55,573 nucleotides of DNA from a bacterium (GTDB taxonomy: Bacteria > Patescibacteriota > Minisyncoccia > Phycocordibacterales > Phycocordibacteraceae): assembly GCA_021849125.1 (NCBI GenBank), contig JAJZTG010000005.1:1-55573 (forward strand), written 5' to 3'. The translations under genes and the position numbers were made by a program. The notes under the pieces are model-generated. The model saw only the letters and a program-made list of their open reading frames with translations. It was not told the origin of the DNA and made no database searches. Positions 3,060 to 44,647 of the stretch are shown one piece after another. How positions within the stretch are numbered: the first letter of the stretch is position 1; the number at the start of each line of letters is the position of its first letter.

Positions 3060-3656
3060 TCAGCGCGTATTCGCGAACATGGTCGCCGCTTCGACACCCT
3101 CGGCCGCGAAGAGCTGCACCGCTTCGACCGTCTTCTTGAGCGCTTTCTTGAGGGTCGCTTCTTCGGTCGGCTTGAACTTGCCGATCACGTGCTTCACCAC
3201 TTTCTCCTCTCCGGAGACTTTCTTCGCCTGGTTCTTCTTCCCTGCGGCGCTTATACCGATACGGATGCGCGTGAAATCTTTCGTCTTTACGGAGCGCATG
3301 ATGCTTTCGATGCCTTTGTGCCCGCCGCTTCCCCTGCCTACGACCATCTTGATGGTGCCAAGCGGCAGATCGAGGTCATCTTGGAGCACGACCATGCTTT
3401 TTGCGGCTTTAGGCGTCTTCACGAACGCGGCAACCGCTTTCCCAGAAAGGTTCATCATCGTCTCGGGCAAGACCAGCGTCGCTTTCTCGCCTTCTACCTC
3501 TCCTTTTGCCACGAGCGCATTGCTCGTCTTGTTAAAAACGAAATTATCGAAGCCTTCCTGTTTCGCGAGAAGCTCGACCGCCATGCGCCCCGCGTTGTGT
3601 CGCGTCTTTTCGTACTCTTTGCCCGGATTTCCGAGCCCAACGATGACGAGTGCCAT
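3060..3656 (-). CDS. pth: peptidyl-tRNA hydrolase
   Basis: MALVIVGLGNPGKEYEKTRHNAGRM... is the canonical Pth N-terminus. I chose the internal ATG at 3656 within the longer ORF 3060..4004. Confidence 0.9.
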   Translation of the reverse strand: MALVIVGLGNPGKEYEKTRHNAGRMAVELLAKQEGFDNFVFNKTSNALVAKGEVEGEKATLVLPETMMNLSGKAVAAFVKTPKAAKSMVVLQDDLDLPLGTIKMVVGRGSGGHKGIESIMRSVKTKDFTRIRIGISAAGKKNQAKKVSGEEKVVKHVIGKFKPTEEATLKKALKKTVEAVQLFAAEGVEAATMFANTR

Positions 3657-3844
3657 TGCATGAAATGATATCACGAGTACGAACATGCAGTACCCAGAGC
3701 GAATCACGAACCGCACACCATGTGCGATAGGTCGTGACAGGGTGCGACACGAAATCGCGACCTTGCGGAGTCGACGAAGTAGTGTCGCGGGTACCCGCAC
3801 AGACCGACAAGCAAATGGTGTGCGGTTCGTGATATGCAAAAATG

Positions 3845-3872
3845 TTGACGCGCAAAACCGTTCGCGTACAAT
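3845..3872 (+). promoter_or_regulatory. sigma70-like promoter of lepB (TTGACG-16 nt-TACAAT), leaderless
   Basis: -35 TTGACG at 3845-3850 and -10 TACAAT at 3867-3872. The ATG at 3879 lies 6 nt after the -10 box with no SD. Confidence 0.6.
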
Positions 3873-3878
3873 GCACGC

Positions 3879-4454
3879 ATGCAAGACAACGGAAAGGGTC
3901 TTCTGAAGGATCTTTTCACGCTCGCGTTCCTTATTATCGTCGTCGTCATACCGATCAGGCTCTTCGTCGTCTCCCCGTTCGTAGTCGATGGCGAGTCGAT
4001 GCACCCCACCTTCGAGAATCTCGACTACCTCATCGTCAATGAACTCATCTACGTTTTCAAGTCCCCTGCTCGTGGCGACGTGATCGTCTTCCGCTACCCG
4101 GGAAATCCTTCGATCTTCTACATTAAGCGCGTCATCGGCCTCCCTGGCGAGACCGTCTCGATCGTAAAAGGTTCTGTCTCTATCACCGCAGCCGACGGTG
4201 CCACGTTCGAACTTCCCGAGCCCTACATCGTCTACGAGGACGCCACCTATACCAAGAAAGTTACCTTGGGTCCGGACGAATATTTCGTTATGGGTGATAA
4301 TCGCCCGAACAGTTCCGACAGCCGCGTATGGGGGGTTCTGCCTGTAAAGAACATCATCGGCCGCGCCGACCTGCGTCTTCTCCCGCCCTCAGAAAGCGGA
4401 TTCTTCCCGGGTACGACGCAGTACAACCTCGCTTCGACCACGCCTGCCTCATGA
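3879..4454 (+). CDS. lepB: signal peptidase I
   Basis: N-terminal TM segment, catalytic-Ser box VVDGESMHPTF, box E GDNRPNSSDSR. Confidence 0.9.
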   Translation: MQDNGKGLLKDLFTLAFLIIVVVIPIRLFVVSPFVVDGESMHPTFENLDYLIVNELIYVFKSPARGDVIVFRYPGNPSIFYIKRVIGLPGETVSIVKGSVSITAADGATFELPEPYIVYEDATYTKKVTLGPDEYFVMGDNRPNSSDSRVWGVLPVKNIIGRADLRLLPPSESGFFPGTTQYNLASTTPAS

Positions 4455-5599
4455 TGCGCACCACCATCCCGGCCGAAGAGATCCTGCATAAGGCGCATAG
4501 CGTCGGTCAATACTACGGCTTCCGCCCGCTTGCCGATCTCACCGCAAAAGCACGTGGTGCGGCCCGCGCAAAGGGCTATCCTGAAACGCTCGCGGGCATC
4601 ACGCTTGATCCTTCTGCTGAGTCTGTCGCGAGCTTTCTCAAGCAGTGCCAGAACATCGAGGCAGTGCCGTCGAGCCGTCAGCCGCTCTTCCTTTGGCATA
4701 CCAACATCGCTGCCGGACGCGCGCCTCAGAAAAAGGCGGTCGTGCAGTTCCACACGATCGGCGCCGATCGCGCGCTTGCTGATGCGGCGATCATCCGCGC
4801 GGCGCTCGCGCTTGTCCGTGACCTCTATCACGAGGAGCCAGTCCTGCGCATAAACTCGATGGGCGACAAAGAGACGCGCGCCCGCTACGCGCGCGAGCTT
4901 GGCAACTTCTTCAAGAAGCGTGCAGGCACACTCTCCGAAGAATGCCTTTCCCGTGCGAAAAGCGACGCCTTCGATGCGGCAGAATACATCATCGCGAACG
5001 AATGCGCGGATGAGCTCCCTGCGCCGACCGAACACCTCTCCGACGCGAGCCGCAAGCGTTTCGAAGACCTGCTCGAATACCTTGAGATGACCGAGACGCC
5101 GTACGAGCTCGCGCGCACGCTCCTCTCCCGCGGCAACGCGTGGAATGACCTCTGCTTCGAGATCCTCGCGGGCGAGAAGCGTGTCGCCTGGGGTTCGCGC
5201 TACAACGAGCTTGCGCGCCATTTCTTCAAGACGCCGTCACCGTTAACCGCGACTGGCGTCGTACTCACCTTTGCAAGCGGCGGTACGGCGGTCGTGAAGA
5301 AGGCACCGAGTCCGCGCATCCGCTTCTCGTTCGTCCACATCGGCGACGAAGCGAAACGCCTGTCGATCAAACTCGCTGAAGATCTGCGGAAAGCGCGTGT
5401 GCCCTTGGTGCAGCATATCGGCGTCGAGTCCCTCACCGAGCAGATGCTCCTCGCCGAACATGCTTCGACTCCGTATCTCCTCATCATGGGCCGCAAGGAA
5501 GCTCTCGAGTCTTCTGCCATCCTTCGCCATCGCGAGAATCAGACCGAGACCACCATCCCGCTTGCAAGCCTTATTGAACGGCTTAAGGCAACGGCGTAG
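4451..5599 (+). CDS. histidyl-tRNA synthetase-like protein with degenerate catalytic motifs and an intact anticodon-binding domain
   Basis: RINSMGDKETRARYARELGNFF resembles the HisRS LNS(I/L)G...R..Y region. The C-terminal about 90 aa resembles the class IIa anticodon-binding domain. Start ATG 4451 overlaps the lepB stop (ATGA). Motif 2, motif 3 and the LRPEGT box are all altered (see finding). Confidence 0.6.
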   Translation: MMRTTIPAEEILHKAHSVGQYYGFRPLADLTAKARGAARAKGYPETLAGITLDPSAESVASFLKQCQNIEAVPSSRQPLFLWHTNIAAGRAPQKKAVVQFHTIGADRALADAAIIRAALALVRDLYHEEPVLRINSMGDKETRARYARELGNFFKKRAGTLSEECLSRAKSDAFDAAEYIIANECADELPAPTEHLSDASRKRFEDLLEYLEMTETPYELARTLLSRGNAWNDLCFEILAGEKRVAWGSRYNELARHFFKTPSPLTATGVVLTFASGGTAVVKKAPSPRIRFSFVHIGDEAKRLSIKLAEDLRKARVPLVQHIGVESLTEQMLLAEHASTPYLLIMGRKEALESSAILRHRENQTETTIPLASLIERLKATA

Positions 5600-5636
5600 A
5601 CAATCCGTAGCCCCTTGTGGTAGGATGTCCTCTATT

Positions 5637-5900
5637 ATGGCAGCAGCAGAAGCAATACGAGTCGAAGTGCGCCGCGGCAAGAACGAGAGTTCGATGTCGC
5701 TTATCCGCCGCTTCACCCGCCGCGCCCAGGGCCTCGGCGTCGTTCGCGCCGTGCGCGATGGCCGCTACTGGGAGCGCGACAAGTCGAAGAACGTCGAGCG
5801 CAAGCGCGCCCTCGTCTCCCTTGCCCGCCGCAAGAACTACAACGAGCTCGTGAAGCTCGGCAAGATCGACCCGACTGCGCGCAAGACGCGCCGCCGCTAA
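5637..5900 (+). CDS. rpsU: 30S ribosomal protein S21
   Basis: IRVEVRRGKNESSMSLIRRFTRR...ERKRA...ARRK, a basic 87-aa S21-like sequence. AGGA lies 11 nt upstream of ATG 5637 (ATG 5625 is an alternative). Confidence 0.85.
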   Translation: MAAAEAIRVEVRRGKNESSMSLIRRFTRRAQGLGVVRAVRDGRYWERDKSKNVERKRALVSLARRKNYNELVKLGKIDPTARKTRRR

Positions 5901-5909
5901 AGGCCCGGG

Positions 5910-6371
5910 ATGGCTGGTATCGACACTCGAAACATGACGCGGCGCTCAGTGCCGCGTTTTCCATATGCCCGCGTCGCCGACGAGGTTCTTCCCGACTGGG
6001 ATGTCTCCCTCGTATTCGTCGGTCCGAAGAAAGCACGCGATCTGAATATTGAGTTGCGTGGCAAATCATACATCCCGAACGTCCTCTCCTATGCGCTCGG
6101 GGAAAAGAATGGCGAGATCTTCATCTGCCTCGAGGAAGCCGAGCGTCAGGCGCCCGAACACGAGATGGATGCGCGCACCTTCGTCCTTTTCCTGTTTATC
6201 CACGGATTACTTCATTTGAAGGGACAGGCTCATGGCGCTACTATGGAGAGATGCGAAAAGGAACTCCTTGCGAAATACGCTCCGGGTCCGGCGCGCAAAT
6301 CCTCTCATGGCACGACGCATAGCAACCGGAATCGACATAGGCACCTACCAGGTAAAGGTAGTGGTCGTTGA
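5910..6371 (+). CDS. ybeY: endoribonuclease YbeY (rRNA maturation factor)
   Basis: HGLLHLKGQAHG matches the H-x3-H-x5-H zinc motif. The 3' end overlaps ftsA by about 65 nt. Confidence 0.85.
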   Translation: MAGIDTRNMTRRSVPRFPYARVADEVLPDWDVSLVFVGPKKARDLNIELRGKSYIPNVLSYALGEKNGEIFICLEEAERQAPEHEMDARTFVLFLFIHGLLHLKGQAHGATMERCEKELLAKYAPGPARKSSHGTTHSNRNRHRHLPGKGSGR

Positions 6372-8948: not shown

Positions 8949-9872
8949 ATGCATGACCTTATTATCGTGGGCGGCGGCCCCGCAGGCGTCGCAGCAGGCG
9001 TCTATGCGGCACGCAAACAGCTTAAGACCGTACTTATAAGCGAAGAGATCGGTGGCCAGTCCGTCGTCTCAGAAGGCATCGAGAACTGGATCGGTACCCC
9101 GAAGATCAGTGGTGCCGACCTCGCCAAAGCGCTCAAGGACCATCTTGAAGCGCTCAAGGGCGACATCGTAACGCTTGAGCTTGGTGAACGCGTCGCCTCA
9201 CTGGAGAAAACCGGCGACGACTTCCTCGTAAAGACGAAGTCCGGCAAGGAATTCACCGGCCGCTCCGTGCTTATCGCTTCCGGCGCAAGCCGCCGCAAGC
9301 TCGCTATCCCGGGCGCTGACAAGTTCGAGCACAAGGGTGTCACGTACTGCGCCTCCTGCGACGGCCCTGTCTTCGCTGGGCAGGATGTCGCGGTCATCGG
9401 CGGCGGCAATGCCGGCTTCGAGACCGCAGCGCAACTCCTCGCCTACGCGAAATCCGTTACGCTCATCCATCGCCACAAGGATTTCAAGGCAGACCCGGTG
9501 ACCGTCGAGAAGGTATCCGCACACCCGAACATGCGCGTTATCCGCCACGCGGAGCCGACCGCGGTTATGGGCGACCAGTTCGTCACCGGCCTCACCTATC
9601 TCGACAAGGACACGAATGAGACCAAAGAACTCCCGGTTACCGGCATCTTCGTCGAGGCGGGCGTGATGCCGAGTACCGACTTCGCTCACGGGCTTGTTGA
9701 TTTTGACCCGGTGGGCCATATCGTAACCGACCCGCGCACGCAGCGCGCAAGCATCGAAGGTATCTGGGCTGCCGGCGACTGTACCGATGAGCTCTACCAC
9801 CAGAACAACATCGCGGTCGGCGATGGTGTGAAAGCGGTCGAGGATCTCTACCTCTGGCTCAAGAAGCGCTAA
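8949..9872 (+). CDS. trxB: thioredoxin-disulfide reductase
   Basis: FAD motif IVGGGPAGVAAGVYAARK, redox CASC (YCASCDG), NADPH motif VIGGGNAGFE, GDC motif. Confidence 0.92.
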   Translation: MHDLIIVGGGPAGVAAGVYAARKQLKTVLISEEIGGQSVVSEGIENWIGTPKISGADLAKALKDHLEALKGDIVTLELGERVASLEKTGDDFLVKTKSGKEFTGRSVLIASGASRRKLAIPGADKFEHKGVTYCASCDGPVFAGQDVAVIGGGNAGFETAAQLLAYAKSVTLIHRHKDFKADPVTVEKVSAHPNMRVIRHAEPTAVMGDQFVTGLTYLDKDTNETKELPVTGIFVEAGVMPSTDFAHGLVDFDPVGHIVTDPRTQRASIEGIWAAGDCTDELYHQNNIAVGDGVKAVEDLYLWLKKR

Positions 9873-9895
9873 TCAATATCTCCGTCTGAAATGCA

Positions 9896-9927
9896 AACGG
9901 CCGGCGCATATGCGCCGGCCGTTTTTC
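9896..9927. terminator. palindromic (bidirectional) terminator after trxB
   Basis: AACGGCCGGCGCATATGCGCCGGCCGTT followed by TTTT. Confidence 0.7.
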
Positions 9928-10118
9928 TGCGGAGAGGGTGGGACCGATGATTACACCTTTTCTCCCTCGCCTCTCGTACTCGCCTTCGCTCGCACGAGGG
10001 CTGGGCACCGCCTCGCTGTCCTCGCCTGCTGGCTCGGACATGCTCCGGCGTTCGAATCCCCCACGCAAGACGCGCAGGCGTCTTGCTCCTCTCCGTAGCT
10101 TTCACTGCGTTCAATCAG

Positions 10119-10205
10119 CGGAGAGGGTGGGATTCGAACCCACGGTCCAGTTACCCGGACGCCGCATTTCGAGTGCGGTGCCTTCGACCACTCAGCCACC
10201 TCTCC
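10119..10205 (-). tRNA. tRNA-Ser (anticodon CGA)
   Basis: Reverse complement folds as GGAGAGG/TG/GCTGAGTGGTCGAAGGC/A/CCGCA-CTCGAAA-TGCGG/long variable arm/GTGGG-TTCGAAT-CCCAC/CCTCTCC/G. CCA is not encoded. Confidence 0.9.
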
Positions 10206-10774
10206 GTATGGATACCCCGTCATCCTATCATAAACAGGAAAAGATGCAGCCCGCGCCCCTTAAGGGGCGCGGGCTGCATCTTACGTAAAAGGAGCTTATG
10301 CAGCTGCCTCCTCCGTGGTCTCTGCCGGCATAGCCTCGGCCGTAGCCTCGGTGGTCTCCTCGACCGGCGTGTTCGTCATCTCGTCCATATTTTGAATATG
10401 TGTCCGGTTCTGCATTAAAAACGCAAAACCAGTCCAACACTTAAGATAAGACTGGCAAAATTCGACCTACATTTATATCTTACCACGACCCCTCCCATTT
10501 TTCAATCCTCAGCAAGACCCTGGGTATAGCGCAAAAACGCCACAAAGCCTGGCCATTTTATGAATATGCGGTAGTATCAACAGGACGGCCCTACCGTCTA
10601 ACGGCTAGGACAGCGCCCTTTCACGAGCGTAGAGAGGGGCTGAAATGCGAGGTGACGCAAGCATTTCAGGGCCGGAGGCCGACGGGCCGAGGCGGGGTCG
10701 CGCAAATTTTCAGCAGAAAATTATGCGTGACCGATCGAATCGAACCCGCTGGCGTGATTCACAACAAATAAATT

Positions 10775-10846
10775 GGCCCTATCGTCTAACGGCTAGGACA
10801 GCGCCCTTTCACGGCGTAAATCGGGGTTCGATTCCCCGTAGGGTCA
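10775..10846 (+). tRNA. tRNA-Glu (anticodon UUC)
   Basis: GGCCCTA/TC/GTCTAACGGCTAGGAC/A/GCGCC-CTTTCAC-GGCGT/AAAT/CGGGG-TTCGATT-CCCCG/TAGGGTC/A. Confidence 0.9.
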
Positions 10847-10883
10847 CATTAATCAATGCTAAGTTTCGTCGACGGACGCTCTG

Positions 10884-10892
10884 TGGTATAGT
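10884..10892 (+). promoter_or_regulatory. extended -10 box TGGTATAGT for tRNA-Val
   Basis: Located 12 nt upstream of tRNA-Val nucleotide 1. Confidence 0.5.
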
Positions 10893-10904
10893 CTCTTCAC
10901 CCTT

Positions 10905-10977
10905 GCGCGGTTAGCTCAGTTGGTAGAGCATCTCATTGACGTTGAGAGGGTCAGGGGTTCGAGTCCCTTACCGCGCA
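10905..10977 (+). tRNA. tRNA-Val (anticodon GAC)
   Basis: GCGCGGT/TA/GCTCAGTTGGTAGAGC/A/TCTCA-TTGACGT-TGAGA/GGGTC/AGGGG-TTCGAGT-CCCTT/ACCGCGC/A, followed by a hairpin and T-run. Confidence 0.92.
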
Positions 10978-11187
10978 CAAGATAAAAGGCTCTGGATGCG
11001 AAGCATCTGGGGCCTTTTATTGTGACGCGGCAAGGGACTCGAAAGGTGTAGCAAGCTGGGCCAGCAGGCGAAGCAGCGAGCCCTGGGTTGCGGAAATTCC
11101 CGAGCGACGGCGAGGGAATTATCTGTGACCGTGCCCTTACCACGCCATATGTCGAACGAGACTGCTAAATCGTGCTATAACAAAGCC

Positions 11188-11961
11188 ATGCGCCCTAAGA
11201 AATCTCCTGCGGCACGAAAAGAAAAAGTCTATATTTACGGCAAGCACGCGCTCGTCGAGGCTCTCTCGAACACCCCTGGCGTAATCCGCAAAGCCTTCCT
11301 CGCGCCCGACCTCCACGACCCTAAACTCCGCAAACTCCTCGAAGAGCACCAAATCCCCGTCTCCCCTCTTGGCGCAAGCCAGGGCAAGGAGCTTGCTGGT
11401 CGCGACGCGGTGCACCAGGGTGTCATCGCAGTCATGGATCCTTCTGCGCTTCTGGTCCCTTTTGATGAATTCATCGCGAACCTCGATTTCTCGAAGAAGC
11501 CGGCGCTCGCACTTCTGGGTGAAGTGCAGGACCCGCACAACGTGGGCGCGATCATCCGCTCGGCCGCAGCCTTCGGTATCTCGGGCGTTCTCATTCCCGA
11601 ACACAATCAGGCAGGCATCACGGGCACAGTCGTGAAAACGTCGGTCGGCATGGTCTTCCGCGTACCGCTCGTCTCGATCGGCAATGTGAACCACACGCTG
11701 AAGACGCTCAAGGAGAAGGGCTTCTGGGTCTATGGCCTCGCGATGCAGGGTTCAGCCGCGCTCGGTGCAGAAATTTTCGACACGCCGAGCGTCTTCGTCG
11801 TCGGTAACGAAGGCGCTGGTATCCGCGAGAAGACGCTCGAAGCGTGTGACGTCACGCTCTCGATCCCGATGCATCCGCGCACGGAGTCTTTGAACGCTGC
11901 GGTCTCCGCCGCCGTCGTCTTTTACGAATGGTCCACCAAACATCCTGAATCACTCGCGTAA
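11188..11961 (+). CDS. rlmB: SpoU/TrmH-family RNA 2'-O-methyltransferase (RlmB-like)
   Basis: YGKHALVEAL substrate-binding N-domain. SPOUT motifs LGEVQDPHNVGAIIRSAAAFG, VVGNEGAGIR and IPMHPRTESLNAAVSAAVVFYE. TGCTATAAC lies 6 nt before the ATG (leaderless). Confidence 0.85.
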   Translation: MRPKKSPAARKEKVYIYGKHALVEALSNTPGVIRKAFLAPDLHDPKLRKLLEEHQIPVSPLGASQGKELAGRDAVHQGVIAVMDPSALLVPFDEFIANLDFSKKPALALLGEVQDPHNVGAIIRSAAAFGISGVLIPEHNQAGITGTVVKTSVGMVFRVPLVSIGNVNHTLKTLKEKGFWVYGLAMQGSAALGAEIFDTPSVFVVGNEGAGIREKTLEACDVTLSIPMHPRTESLNAAVSAAVVFYEWSTKHPESLA

Positions 11962-42395: not shown

Positions 42396-42805
42396 GGGGG
42401 TGACCGGCTTTGACGGTCTGTACTTTGAAAGACGTGCGACGCAGTGCACTCTCGCCTACCACTTAAATCTAGCGAGAAAACATACTTGCAAAGAACACTC
42501 TTGCAAGCGTAAAGTCCCCGTACTTCGGTATGAAGGATTTTGCGTTCGCCTACGCGTAAACCGCTTTTTACCGGTTACGCCTAGCGCGACGTCTTCTTCC
42601 AGTCGGCGCCCACAGCGCTGGGTGAGGGCGGAATCTTCTGTGAGCTAGGATCGCGGCCGTCCGCCCGCGTTCCGAAACAAGGACTCATCGTGGAGTGGTT
42701 TCGTCTCGATTTTTACACCCACGACCAGATTTCAATTGGGACTATGCGTCGTAGACTCGCTTTCATAGCCAGATTCGGACGGGGGTTCGATACCCCCCAC
42801 CTCCA
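42396..42805 (+). ncRNA. ssrA: tmRNA (SsrA)
   Basis: 5' GGGGGTGACCGGCTTTGACGG and 3' GGACGGGGGTTCGATACCCCCCACCTCCA form the tRNA-like domain. A candidate tag ORF starts at GCA 42488 and ends ...DFAFAYA-TAA at 42557-42559. Adjacent to smpB. Confidence 0.88.
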
Positions 42806-42818
42806 CAAAGCAGCAAGA

Positions 42819-42840
42819 GGTCCGCGCAAGCGGACTTTTT
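42819..42840 (+). terminator. terminator after ssrA
   Basis: GGTCCGC-GCAA-GCGGAC followed by TTTTT. Confidence 0.65.
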
Positions 42841-43004
42841 GCTTTGTGGAGTGGAGCGAGCCGACTGCTCGGCTCGTGTGGGGTATCGAGAGGCGGAGCG
42901 TTGCGCGTGAGCGCCGCGAGCCGGGGTCGAGAGCGCTTAGCGGATTGTGAACACTTGGAACAATACGCTTAGCGACTCGTGACCAACCCGCACCTTCATA
43001 TTCT

Positions 43005-43044
43005 ACAATAACGAACCCGCTTGAGCGGGTTCGTTATTGTTTTA
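43005..43044. terminator. strong hairpin at the left edge of the AT-rich island
   Basis: ACAATAACGAACCCGC-TTGA-GCGGGTTCGTTATTGT followed by TTTTATTT. Abuts the stop codon of the 43042..43512 gene. Confidence 0.65.
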
Positions 43045-44274: not shown

Positions 44275-44647
44275 TTTTCTAATATAGCACTACCGCTATA
44301 TTTATACAACTACCCACTCTGCGCATAAACAGAGACGTTACCATGTGACCTTTCTTCCTGCGTGCGGTTATAGAAGGCAGAGGGGTTTGAAACTTGGCGG
44401 AGGTGGAGGCAGGTAAGGTTTGTCTGAGTTTTTTGCTTTCCGCACACTCGACATCCTTACCTCCTCCCCTCTCGGCCATCCTTATCTTCTTCAACTTCAA
44501 CCCTTCTACCTTGTCCTTTCTCGTCAGATGCATCTACACCTATCACTACCTCTTCCGCGTCTGACACCCCTGTTCCTTCTTCTTTTTCTTCCTCCCGTTC
44601 CTTTTCTTCCAAGACCAGCTTTGCTGGTCTTTTTGTATACTGCTTGT

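What the first reader, a model, noticed from the sequence alone, without database searches (positions are those of the whole stretch)
42806..42998. Third module of the same architecture downstream of tmRNA (inverted copy with inserted hairpin plus an imperfect direct copy of the ssrA 3' end)
Directly seen. After the ssrA 3' end (…TTCGATACCCCCCACCTCCACAAAGCA, 42786-42812) and its terminator hairpin comes TGCTTTGTGGAG-TGGAG[CGAGCCGACTGCTCGGCTCG]TGTGGGGTATCGA (42840-42892). This is the reverse complement of the ssrA T-arm and acceptor 3' strand plus 8 nt of flank, interrupted by a hairpin at the same relative position as in the tRNA-Ser modules. About 90 nt further on, AACCCGCACCTTCA (42985-42998) is a 10/12 direct match to CCCCCACCTCCA of the ssrA 3' end. 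The AT-rich island starts immediately afterwards. A direct repeat of the tmRNA 3' end is the classical signature of tmRNA-targeted integration, but the inverted copy is not explained by that model.
Basis: partly seen in the sequence, partly recalled or inferred. Interest (0 to 1): 0.62.

Follow-up and report, generated by a model that had tools for sequence, protein, structure and literature searches.

The report
Mini insertion element in tmRNA gene
The stretch after the tmRNA gene is one copy of an apparently undescribed family of about 170-base, protein-less, folded insertion elements of tiny "candidate phyla radiation" bacteria. Each copy sits in the T-loop of a tRNA or tmRNA gene, restores the gene's end, and carries an inverted copy of that end.

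Summary
After ssrA (42396-42806) come:
- a terminator hairpin;
- an inverted copy of the tmRNA T-loop, T-stem, acceptor 3' strand and trailer (42840-42889), split by a 20-nt hairpin;
- a 104-nt conserved core (42881-42984);
- a degenerate direct copy of the tmRNA end (42987-42998).

This is not a local oddity.
- About 15 of the 40 tRNA/tmRNA genes of this genome carry the same layout.
- A covariance model of the core finds 1-31 copies in 30 of 41 related genomes.
- In a GTDB-wide sample, 53 of 69 cores lie within 120 nt 3' of a co-oriented tRNA/tmRNA gene.
- The core has strong compensatory covariation and matches no Rfam family.
- Most relatives' ssrA loci lack the module. Those that have it carry different subtypes, each with an inverted copy matching its own tmRNA.

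Best reading: a non-autonomous mini-element inserted in the T-loop. It supplies a replacement 3' end plus terminator. The weak direct repeat is the displaced original end. That repeat bounds the mini-element, not the AT-rich island.

The mechanism is inferred only. The two inverted target copies may fold into a hairpin that mimics the duplex target, as in CTX phage attP or integron attC. No dedicated enzyme was found and no RNA was seen over the module.

The parts
42396..42806 (+). ssrA (tmRNA). T-stem 5' strand 42781-42785, T-loop TTCGATA 42786-42792, T-stem 3' strand 42793-42797, acceptor 3' strand CACCTCC 42798-42804, discriminator A 42805. CCA is not encoded.
   Evidence: ARAGORN; Rfam RF00023, 99 bits. 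RNA contigs of runs X3 and X4 match 42417-42771 with 0 mismatches.
42787..42812 (+). Copy A: the proximal, functional tmRNA 3' end (T-loop 3' part, T-stem 3' strand, acceptor 3' strand) plus 7 nt of trailer. This is the segment that is copied in inverted form.
   Evidence: I5, I7. In the family, the 5' extension of the inverted copy complements the proximal trailer (72/117) rather than the distal one (43/117).
42820..42840 (+). Terminator-like hairpin GTCCGC-GCAA-GCGGAC followed by TTTTT. It is the tip of the long A / inverted-A hairpin.
   Evidence: Read directly; folds. Not listed by the consensus scan.
42840..42856 (+). Inverted copy, first segment (g1). TGCTTTGTGGAG is the exact complement of 42801-42812 (end of the acceptor strand, discriminator and trailer). 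It is followed by TGGAG.
   Evidence: I5.
42857..42876 (+). Inserted hairpin hp0: CGAGCCGA-CTGC-TCGGCTCG. It is a conserved family feature: a 9-bp stem of free sequence, loop CTGC in type A, followed by GT.
   Evidence: among 70 modules CTGC is by far the commonest loop of the strongest >=6-bp hairpin just before the core (18 modules; GGG next, 5), on roughly 9-bp stems that differ by fully compensated changes. Some of those strongest hairpins, including the one picked for this copy, are the upstream terminator or other hairpins rather than hp0; hp0 of this copy was read directly.
42877..42889 (+). Inverted copy, second segment (g2). After TGT, GGGGTATCGA is the complement of TCGATACCCC (42787-42796), that is the T-stem 3' strand and most of the T-loop.
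   Evidence: I7: 14 nt, 93%.
42881..42984 (+). Conserved core, subtype A1. It has a GAGAG linker, helix Pa (GGC/GCC) closing hairpin hp1, and helix Pb (GGTCG/CGTGACC) closing the long hairpin hp2. It ends in GTGACC.
   Evidence: Model R1: 64.6 bits, E = 4e-15. Covariation on alignment A2: 88% of cells paired against 68% in shuffles, and 23 of 31 pairs with compensatory change. In the A1 clade with the His and Leu(caa) copies of this genome. No Rfam match.
42987..42998 (+). Degenerate direct copy CCCGCACCTTCA of CCCCCACCTCCA (42794-42805). It is read as the displaced original tmRNA 3' end and the right boundary of the element.
   Evidence: 10/12. Its position is fixed by the family layout: 65 of 70 modules have a direct repeat directly after the core.
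43005..43040 (.). Perfect 17-bp bidirectional terminator directly after the direct copy. Inferred to be the original ssrA terminator, now shared with the convergent toxin-antitoxin operon of the AT-rich island.
   Evidence: (I4). In other modules the distal copy is also followed by a terminator.

Best explanation
The region 42787-42998 is one old copy (core subtype A1) of a family of non-autonomous, protein-less insertion elements of about 150-190 nt. They occur in Patescibacteria, mainly in this organism's order, and their target is the T-loop of tRNA and tmRNA genes.

In the integrated state the order is:
1. the gene up to the T-loop;
2. a replacement 3' end with its own trailer and terminator, which is the functional end;
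3. an inverted copy of that end, split by a conserved 9-bp/CTGC hairpin;
4. a conserved two-hairpin core ending in GTGACC;
5. the displaced original 3' end with the original terminator.

So the weak direct repeat at 42987-42998 is the displaced fragment that closes the mini-element. It is not the boundary of the AT-rich island.

Shown: the layout, its recurrence at many different tRNA/tmRNA genes, the covarying structure of the core, the patchy presence among relatives, and the tandem arrays.

Inferred:
- The element moves or moved as a single strand or small circle. In it the end and its inverted copy pair into a hairpin that imitates the duplex target.
- It recombines with the T-loop through an enzyme supplied in trans. 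This is analogous to the folded attP(+) of CTX phage or to integron attC sites.
- This would explain why an inverted target copy is kept.

The confidence given (0.6) is for the reading as a whole. I put membership of the family and the role of the direct repeat at about 0.85, and the folded-hairpin mechanism at about 0.3.
For: - Recurrence in this genome. About 15 of 40 tRNA/tmRNA genes show an inverted copy at +25 to +60 and a direct copy at +150 to +180. All 12 strong core copies lie just 3' of tRNA/tmRNA genes.
- Recurrence elsewhere. R1 finds 1-31 copies in 30 of 41 relatives. A GTDB-wide pattern scan gives more than 120 hits, nearly all in Patescibacteria. Of 69 cores, 53 lie within 120 nt 3' of a co-oriented tRNA/tmRNA gene, against a chance fraction of 0.4% (binomial p about 1e-111). 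46 of 53 have the inverted copy and 36 of 53 the direct copy.
- Patchy presence. Most ssrA loci of relatives have a plain terminator. Modules at ssrA in G004, G017, G025, G029, G033 and G035 are of different subtypes and each matches its own tmRNA end; G023 has a core hit beside its ssrA that I did not read. The close pair G005/G014 differ at tRNA-Cys and tRNA-Leu(taa). Identical tandem copies occur.
- Retargeting. One core subtype (A1) sits at tmRNA, tRNA-His and tRNA-Leu in this genome, each with its own matching copies.
- Folding. There is strong covariation, and a G.U pair is conserved in 9 of 11 cores. z = -9.
- Which copy came with the element. The inverted copy complements the proximal trailer. 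The distal copy is degenerate and is followed by a second terminator.
- T-loop insertion. Direct repeats often start inside the T-loop (GTGAC|CGATT...). In the read-through fold the gene's 5' strands pair with the distal copy and the element forms a separate rod.
- The logic of a regenerated target plus a displaced fragment is that of tDNA islands (PMC4383910).
Against: - No enzyme is tied to the element. This genome has no reverse transcriptase and no TnpB. It has only one conserved Xer-like tyrosine recombinase. Its one Y1 HUH gene is flanked by unrelated palindromes.
- No excised form, empty site of the same strain or circle junction was seen. DNA contigs of runs X1 and X2 only show the filled site.
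- The direct repeat varies from 8 to about 49 nt. Sometimes it includes the trailer and terminator, which fits local duplication as well as an element-borne copy.
- Pairs between the end and its inverted copy show no G.T over A.C excess (12 against 10). The inverted copy is not better kept than the direct copy. So nothing shows selection on that hairpin in integrated copies.
- The 297-nt tRNA-Pro block including its module is 100% identical between G005 and G014, while flanking coding sequence is about 88% identical. This fits constraint on a function as well as recent transfer.
Confidence: 0.6

Rival explanations
1. The module is a functional structured RNA made with the tmRNA/tRNA, not a mobile element. 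It would be a tRNA-like helper or processing domain. Its closing helix imitates the acceptor and T stems of the neighbouring gene, for example as an entry site for RNase P or RNase Z, or as an alternative 3' end. It would be kept by selection.
For: - Compensatory covariation and a conserved G.U pair on the tRNA-sense strand.
- Strict co-orientation with the gene.
- Some copies have no T-run between the gene and the module, so they must be co-transcribed.
- 100% identity of the tRNA-Pro module between two species whose flanks differ by about 12% (0.88^215 is about 1e-12).
- The possible orthologues at ssrA in G000 and G017 differ by double compensatory changes.
- In the read-through fold the distal copy can close the tRNA-like domain.
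Against: - A terminator precedes the module here.
- RNA contigs of this very strain cover the tmRNA but not the module. This is weak evidence because depth is low.
- Copy number ranges from 0 to 31 per genome and the set of tRNAs affected is patchy. There are tandem arrays and truncated copies.
- The distal copy decays, and here it makes only a wobble-rich closing helix.
- 11 of 41 relatives lack the type A core altogether.
Confidence: 0.2
2. There is no element. The direct-inverted-direct layout is a by-product of replication template switching between two natural palindromes, the terminator and the T-arm. This would be a tandem inversion duplication of the gene's 3' end.
For: - The zig-zag order, with turning points at the terminator loop and in the T-loop, is what such duplications give.
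- Some direct repeats include the trailer and terminator (Glu-ctc 49 nt, Cys in G017 36 nt).
- tRNA-Gly(gcc) on contig C1 shows inverted plus direct copies joined by a 9-nt loop without any core.
Against: - It cannot explain a conserved, covarying core of about 95 nt and a conserved 9-bp/CTGC hairpin at hundreds of different tRNA loci in many genomes.
- It cannot explain proximal and distal trailers that differ.
Confidence: 0.06
3. The module is the att scar (attL side) of the AT-rich toxin-antitoxin island, left by an integrase that targeted ssrA.
For: - tmRNA genes are classical island targets (PMC4383910, PMC3146451).
- G+C drops to 42% right after the direct copy.
Against: - The displaced fragment lies before the island, so it does not enclose it.
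- There is no direct copy of the tmRNA end and no second core at the far side. The only thing there is a 14/17 inverted match in a low-complexity tract (44393-44409).
- The genome's only tyrosine recombinase gene, the Xer-like one, lies on another contig.
- The same module occurs at about 14 other tRNA genes without any island.
Confidence: 0.03

Closest known systems
tDNA-integrating genomic islands and prophages (tyrosine-integrase elements in tRNA/tmRNA genes, T-loop sublocation; Islander definition, PMC4383910; phage Ms6, PMC1762012), and their integrase-less cis-mobilizable derivatives
   Same: Insertion inside the 3' part of a tRNA/tmRNA gene. The element restores the gene. A displaced 3' fragment remains as a direct repeat at the far end. 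Successive elements pile up at one gene (G017 ssrA).
   Different: The element is 150-190 nt and has no integrase or any other gene. It carries an inverted copy of the target and a conserved folded core. One core lineage occurs at many different tRNA species within one genome, so target specificity is not fixed.
Folded single-strand recombination sites: attP(+) of CTX phage (two inverted dif-like sites about 90 nt apart that fold into a hairpin used by host XerCD) and integron attC sites. Stated from my own knowledge.
   Same: Two inverted copies of the target sequence separated by tens of nucleotides can fold into a duplex that imitates the target. Structure is conserved more than sequence. 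No recombinase gene is needed in the element. A single Xer-like recombinase is the only tyrosine recombinase in this genome.
   Different: The target is a tRNA/tmRNA T-loop, not dif or attI. No recombinase has been linked to the element. No strand bias was detected in the pairs between the end and its inverted copy. This is a working analogy, not a tested membership.
REP/REPIN elements with RAYT (Y1 HUH) transposases, and hairpin-only derivatives of IS200/IS605
   Same: Short, non-coding, hairpin-rich repeats present in many copies and presumably moved in trans as single strands. A Y1 HUH gene exists in this genome and in 28 of 41 relatives. It is present in 24 of 30 module-bearing relatives against 4 of 11 module-free ones (Fisher p = 0.019, not corrected for phylogeny).
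   Different: The Y1 genes are flanked by their own species-specific palindromes, which are unrelated to the module. REPs do not copy their target, do not give direct repeats, and are not tied to tRNA genes.
Tandem inversion duplications by template switching at quasi-palindromes (described in Salmonella; from my own knowledge)
   Same: Direct-inverted-direct order, with junctions at natural hairpins (the terminator and the T-arm).
   Different: Such duplications contain only local sequence. Here a foreign conserved core and a conserved hairpin sit at fixed places.

Membership tests
tDNA-integrating genomic island (Islander-type) | Regenerated target gene plus a displaced 3' fragment as a direct repeat at the far end | tested here: met
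   The proximal end is intact. The distal copy is 10/12 at 42987-42998. 65 of 70 family members have a direct repeat.
tDNA-integrating genomic island (Islander-type) | Tyrosine (or serine) integrase gene inside the element | tested here: not met
   The element is about 190 nt with no ORF. The genome's only PF00589 hit is the conserved Xer-like gene at C1:99510-100040.
tDNA-integrating genomic island (Islander-type) | Fixed target gene for a given element lineage | tested here: not met
   Core subtype A1 sits at tmRNA, tRNA-His and tRNA-Leu(caa) in this genome and at Leu(caa) and Arg(cct) in G017.
MITE (miniature inverted-repeat transposable element) | Element-specific terminal inverted repeats and a target-site duplication of fixed length | tested here: not met
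   The repeats are copies of each target, not of the element. Direct repeat length ranges from 8 to 31 nt in the window scored and reaches about 49 nt in Glu-ctc.
REP/REPIN with RAYT | The RAYT gene is flanked by the same repeats that are spread through the genome | tested here: not met
   The Y1 gene at C4:46784-47473 is flanked by CCAAGGTCSGACCTTGG, which occurs only there and once more on C4. Homologues in relatives have other palindromes.
Folded single-strand att site (CTX attP(+) / integron attC type) | Two inverted target-like half sites that fold into a duplex substrate | tested here: met
   Segments 42787-42812 and 42840-42889 pair over about 25 bp around the terminator.
Folded single-strand att site (CTX attP(+) / integron attC type) | Recombination by Xer or IntI on one strand; single-stranded intermediate | not testable with these tools
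   Only contigs of public runs were available. No junction reads were seen. There is no strand bias in mismatches.
Any described RNA family (Rfam 15) | Match to a curated covariance model | tested here: not met
   With permissive thresholds only the tmRNA/tRNA ends and chance hits appear.
Retroelement (group II intron, retron, tRNA-primed element) | Reverse transcriptase in the element or the genome | tested here: not met
   No PF00078 hit in this genome and no correlation with module presence. The reverse transcriptase next to a G017 array belongs to a diversity-generating retroelement.
IS200/IS605 with TnpB guide RNA (scaffold plus flank-derived 3' guide) | TnpB or IscB nuclease present | tested here: not met
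   PF07282 is absent from this genome and present in only 2 of 41 relatives.

The most novel reading that the evidence does not exclude
The modules are a new kind of mobile element that needs no gene of its own. It recognises tRNA/tmRNA genes through a target mimic made of its own two inverted target copies. When it lands in a new tRNA it can rewrite that mimic, for example by palindrome-templated correction. It would therefore be a self-retargeting, hairpin-guided insertion element that uses a host enzyme such as the single Xer-like recombinase or the Y1 HUH protein.
Probability: 0.25. Interest if true: 0.9.

Novelty: new variant of a known kind. Interest (0 to 1): 0.68.

Why it matters
These bacteria have genomes of 0.5-1 Mb with very little spare DNA. 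Even so, up to a third of their tRNA genes, and the single tmRNA gene, carry this element.

If it is mobile, it is the smallest known element that integrates into tRNA genes and repairs them. It would show how target specificity can be carried by a folded copy of the target rather than by a protein.

If it is instead a functional RNA, it is an unrecognised, widespread partner of tRNA genes in a major uncultured lineage.

In either case it has practical consequences:
- It produces the tRNA-end fragments and pseudo-att sites that mislead island finders and tRNA annotation in these genomes.
- It shows that the direct repeat next to ssrA here must not be used to delimit the neighbouring toxin-antitoxin island.

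Tried and rejected
- Rfam at permissive thresholds on the tmRNA module and on a type B module: nothing but tRNA/tmRNA ends and chance hits.
- A hammerhead-like CUGA...GAAA motif in type B cores: considered by eye. It does not fit the hammerhead core and has no Rfam hit.
- Reverse transcriptase: absent from this genome. The one beside a G017 array is part of a diversity-generating retroelement, with a template/variable repeat pair visible.
- TnpB guide-RNA analogy (scaffold plus flank-derived 3' guide): TnpB is absent.
- Y1 HUH transposase as mobiliser: present and weakly correlated, but its flanking palindromes are unrelated to the module.
- Phage origin: two pattern scans of viral contigs gave one real array on a contig end and one chance hit. 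This was not informative.
- A second module or direct repeat at the far side of the AT-rich island: none.
- Expression: metatranscriptome contigs cover this strain's tmRNA but not the module, and not the other modules in 9850-11250. Depth is too low to conclude anything.
- Strand asymmetry of wobble pairs between the end and its inverted copy: none.
- Whether the inverted copy is kept better than the direct copy: it is not.
- The apparent result that the inverted copy 'follows' the proximal copy (46 against 6): rejected as evidence of selection, because independent decay of the distal copy gives the same pattern.
- Clustering of cores by genome or by tRNA on a tree: not significant.
- Literature searches found no description of such elements. 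The library is limited, so this is not proof of novelty.

Full report
**1. What is there**

ssrA runs from 42396 to 42806 (ARAGORN; Rfam tmRNA 99 bits).
- Its tRNA-like 3' part reads GGGGG (T-stem, 42781-85), TTCGATA (T-loop, 42786-92), CCCCC (42793-97), CACCTCC (acceptor strand, 42798-804) and A (discriminator). The trailer CAAAGCA follows.
- Next comes a hairpin GTCCGC-GCAA-GCGGAC with TTTTT (42820-42840).
- From 42840, TGCTTTGTGGAG is the exact complement of 42801-42812.
- After TGGAG comes a 20-nt hairpin CGAGCCGA-CTGC-TCGGCTCG (42857-76).
- After TGT, GGGGTATCGA is the complement of 42787-42796.
- The repeat finder recovers both inverted pairs (I5 and I7).
- A 104-nt stretch ending in GTGACC follows (42881-42984), then AA, then CCCGCACCTTCA (42987-98). 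The last is a 10/12 direct match to the tmRNA end.
- A perfect 17-bp bidirectional terminator follows at 43005-43040.

On its own the 10/12 match is weak. One search finds nine others of that quality in the window. Its position is what the family predicts (section 2). The whole stretch from the T-loop to the direct copy folds with z = -9.

**2. It is one member of a large family**

I scanned all 40 tRNA/tmRNA genes of the 578-kb genome for inverted and direct copies of their own last 32 nt.
- About 15 have an inverted copy at +25 to +60 and a direct copy at +150 to +180.
- These are His, Leu(gag, truncated), Lys(ctt, two tandem units), Trp, Leu(caa), Asp, Val(gac), Ser(cga), Ser(gga), Ser(gct), Tyr, Glu(ctc), Gly(ccc) and tmRNA.

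Between the two copies lies one of two conserved cores.
- Type A occurs at tmRNA, His, Leu(caa), Val, Asp, Trp and Ser(cga).
- Type B occurs at Ser(gga), Tyr, Glu(ctc), Lys and Ser(gct).
- Profile searches of the genome find 12 strong cores, and all lie just 3' of tRNA/tmRNA genes.
- The tmRNA copy belongs to subtype A1, together with the His and Leu(caa) copies.

The hairpin that splits the inverted copy is itself conserved across the family. It has a 9-bp stem of free but compensated sequence. The loop is CTGC in type A and GGG in type B. It is preceded by A and followed by GT.

**3. The core is a folded structure**

I made an 11-sequence alignment of type A cores and drew the structure by hand from the single-sequence folds.
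- 88% of cells form pairs, against 68% in column shuffles and about 35% when partners are slid.
- 23 of 31 pairs show changes on both sides.
- One G.U pair is kept in 9 of 11 sequences.

The G.U pair points to the tRNA-sense strand as the folded one. No Rfam family matches.

**4. Distribution**

- The covariance model R1 finds the core in 30 of 41 relatives, with 1-31 copies each.
- It finds the core in only 9 of 201 genomes drawn evenly from the phylum (stricter filters). The family is therefore concentrated in this order.
Nearly all are Patescibacteria MAGs, labelled Kaiser-, Taylor-, Yonath-, Zambryski-, Nomura-, Campbell- and Moranbacteria among others.
- In those loci, 53 of 69 cores lie within 120 nt 3' of a co-oriented tRNA/tmRNA gene and four more lie in arrays. 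At least 30 different tRNA species are affected. By chance 0.4% would lie there.
- 46 of 53 have the inverted copy and 36 of 53 the direct copy.

**5.

Of 30 ssrA loci fetched, most have a plain terminator after the gene.

Modules are present as follows:

| Genome | Relation | What is at ssrA |
|---|---|---|
| G004 | same genus | module |
| G017 | same genus | several modules (see below) |
| G023 | same genus | core hit beside ssrA, not read |
| G025 | other family | tandem modules |
| G029 | other family | module |
| G033 | other family | module |
| G035 | other family | type B module |

- In each genome whose module I read, the inverted copy matches that genome's own tmRNA end (for example GGAGATGG for CCATCTCC).
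- The subtypes differ within the genus. That argues for repeated insertion rather than one inherited feature.
- G017 (L031) carries, in order: two or three A2 modules, a 0.65-kb gene, a terminator, and an A1 module.
- That A1 module has an inverted and a direct copy specific for tmRNA, and the same GTGACCAAC junction as the window copy.
- It may be the orthologue of the window copy, with later insertions piled up in front of it. The two differ by double compensatory changes in the long hairpin.
- The close pair G005/G014 differ at two loci. The Cys module is in G014 only and the Leu(taa) module is in G005 only.
- Their tRNA-Pro module is 100% identical over a 297-nt block, while flanking coding sequence is about 88% identical.

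**6. Geometry: an insertion in the T-loop that brings a spare 3' end**

- Direct repeats often begin inside the T-loop (GTGAC|CGATT-T-stem...).
- The inverted copy covers the whole T-loop, the T-stem 3' strand, the acceptor strand and part of the trailer.
- Its 5' extension complements the proximal trailer (72/117), not the distal one (43/117). The proximal end, its terminator and the inverted copy therefore belong together as one long hairpin.
- The distal copy has its own terminator and decays.
- In the minimum-energy fold of a read-through tmRNA-plus-module transcript, the proximal end pairs with the inverted copy. The tmRNA 5' acceptor strand and T-stem 5' strand pair with the distal copy. 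The element thus behaves as a self-contained rod of about 200 nt inserted in the T-loop.
- This is the logic of tDNA islands, a regenerated target plus a displaced fragment (PMC4383910), at a fiftieth of their size and without an integrase.

**7. Consequence for the island**

It therefore bounds the mini-element and not the island.
- No direct copy of the tmRNA end and no second core lie at the far side.
- A 14/17 inverted match at 44393-44409 sits in a low-complexity tract, and I do not read anything into it.
- DNA contigs of two public runs carry tmRNA, module and island start contiguously with no mismatch.

**8. Mechanism**

Nothing in the genome is obviously dedicated to the element.
- There is no reverse transcriptase and no TnpB.
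- There is one Xer-like tyrosine recombinase, present once in nearly every relative.
- There is one Y1 HUH (IS200/RAYT-like) gene at C4:46784-47473, with an HUH motif and a YIHANP tyrosine. It is flanked by its own palindrome, which is unrelated to the module.
- Y1 genes occur in 24 of 30 module-bearing relatives and 4 of 11 module-free ones (p = 0.019, not corrected for phylogeny).

My preferred model is inference only.
- The free form is a small circle or single strand.
- In it the end and its inverted copy pair into a duplex imitation of the target.
- It recombines in the conserved T-loop through a trans-acting enzyme.
- This resembles the folded attP(+) of CTX phage with host XerCD, or integron attC (from my own knowledge).
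- It is the only model I found that gives the inverted copy a job.

How a lineage changes target is open. Landing in another tRNA through the conserved T-loop, followed by palindrome-templated correction, is a guess.

Points against the model or neutral to it:
- No junction reads were found.
- Mismatches show no strand bias.
- The inverted copy is not better kept than the direct copy.
- Direct repeat length is variable and sometimes includes the terminator.

**9. Rivals**

- A functional co-transcribed RNA remains possible at about 20%. The evidence for it is the covariation, the conserved G.U pair, the perfect conservation of the Pro module, and the copies that lack a terminator.
- Against it are the terminator here, the lack of RNA over the module (weak evidence), and the patchy, array-forming distribution.
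- Pure template-switch duplication cannot explain the conserved core. It may still explain how the target copies are made. A core-less inverted-plus-direct hairpin occurs at tRNA-Gly(gcc).
- The att-scar-of-the-island reading fails on geometry.

**10. Relation to earlier notes**

Note e1-4561105 on the tRNA-Ser(cga) module reached the same family-level reading. I re-derived it independently and added:
- the T-loop junction;
- the proximal-trailer result;
- the read-through fold;
- the comparison of ssrA loci;
- the enzyme inventory;
- the separation of the module from the island.

Note e1-4561108 describes a duplicate of the tRNA-Glu 5' half. R1 hits its spacer (10660-10732, E = 3.4e-7). The same core therefore also occurs in a mirror-image arrangement upstream of a tRNA.

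Noticed in passing
window 10587-10774: The spacer between the duplicated 5' half of tRNA-Glu(ttc) and the intact gene contains a short type A core (R1 hit 10660-10732, E = 3.4e-7). A piece complementary to the T-arm follows it. This is a mirror-image arrangement: fragment, core, complete gene.
   Followed up: partly
G000 contig C4:46745-47500 (outside the window): This is the genome's only Y1 HUH (IS200/RAYT-like) gene, 230 aa, with an HUH motif and YIHANP. The 17-bp palindrome CCAAGGTCSGACCTTGG lies upstream of it, inside it and downstream of it. Homologues in relatives each carry their own species-specific long palindromes in and around the gene (L185-L188).
   Followed up: partly
L031 (G017 C1:501000-504000), 831-2420: The ssrA locus holds an accretion array. 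In order: two or three A2 modules, a 0.65-kb gene for a secreted protein, a terminator, and an A1 module whose inverted and direct copies match the tmRNA.
   Followed up: partly
L047 and L048 (G014 and G005), tRNA-Val/tRNA-Pro(cgg) locus: A 297-nt block comprising tRNA-Pro and its module is 100% identical between two species whose flanking coding sequence is about 88% identical.
   Followed up: partly
L179 (G005 C3:13500-15600), about 270-780: An ORF with an HNH endonuclease motif (...DHINGNRYDNRLENLRILCPNCH...) sits between tRNA-Cys and tRNA-Leu(taa). The close relative G014 has a module at that place instead.
   Followed up: no
L006, L009, L022, L028 (ssrA loci of relatives): Directly after the tmRNA end there is a shared motif TCGACTCGC...GTGG(C/T)AA(G/A)CCAC. 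In three of the four loci a small GIY-YIG-like ORF follows (MYFVYM...LYVGIT...). This is another kind of insert at the ssrA 3' end.
   Followed up: no
L011 and L004 (ssrA loci of G010 and G037): A unit of about 60 nt (AATAACGAGC...TATATTTTGTGAGAATGCC...GTACTCCACAA) follows the tmRNA end. It ends in a copy of CTCCACAA and is repeated twice in tandem in L011. This is a smaller element that copies the tmRNA end.
   Followed up: no
G000 contig C1, 3' of tRNA-Gly(gcc) 96087-96158: There are two acceptor-stem-like hairpins, each an inverted plus a direct copy of a tRNA-Gly 3' end joined by a 6-9-nt loop. Each is followed by a trailer copy and a terminator. Neither contains a type A or B core.
   Followed up: no
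window 44393-44409: A 14/17 inverted match to the tmRNA 3' end (CTTGGCGGAGGTGGAGG) lies at the far side of the toxin-antitoxin cassette, inside a purine/pyrimidine-skewed low-complexity tract. It is probably chance.
   Followed up: partly
L051 (G017 C1:111500-118500), 3544-6021: A diversity-generating retroelement is present. It has a reverse transcriptase with YADDF. A template/variable repeat pair is visible in the translations (NRDDSRWNANVNRLGNDNRWNADNRLLVRN against NRGDSRWNADVSRLGNDDRWDADDRLLVRN). It lies next to a module array, and the adjacency looks incidental.
   Followed up: partly
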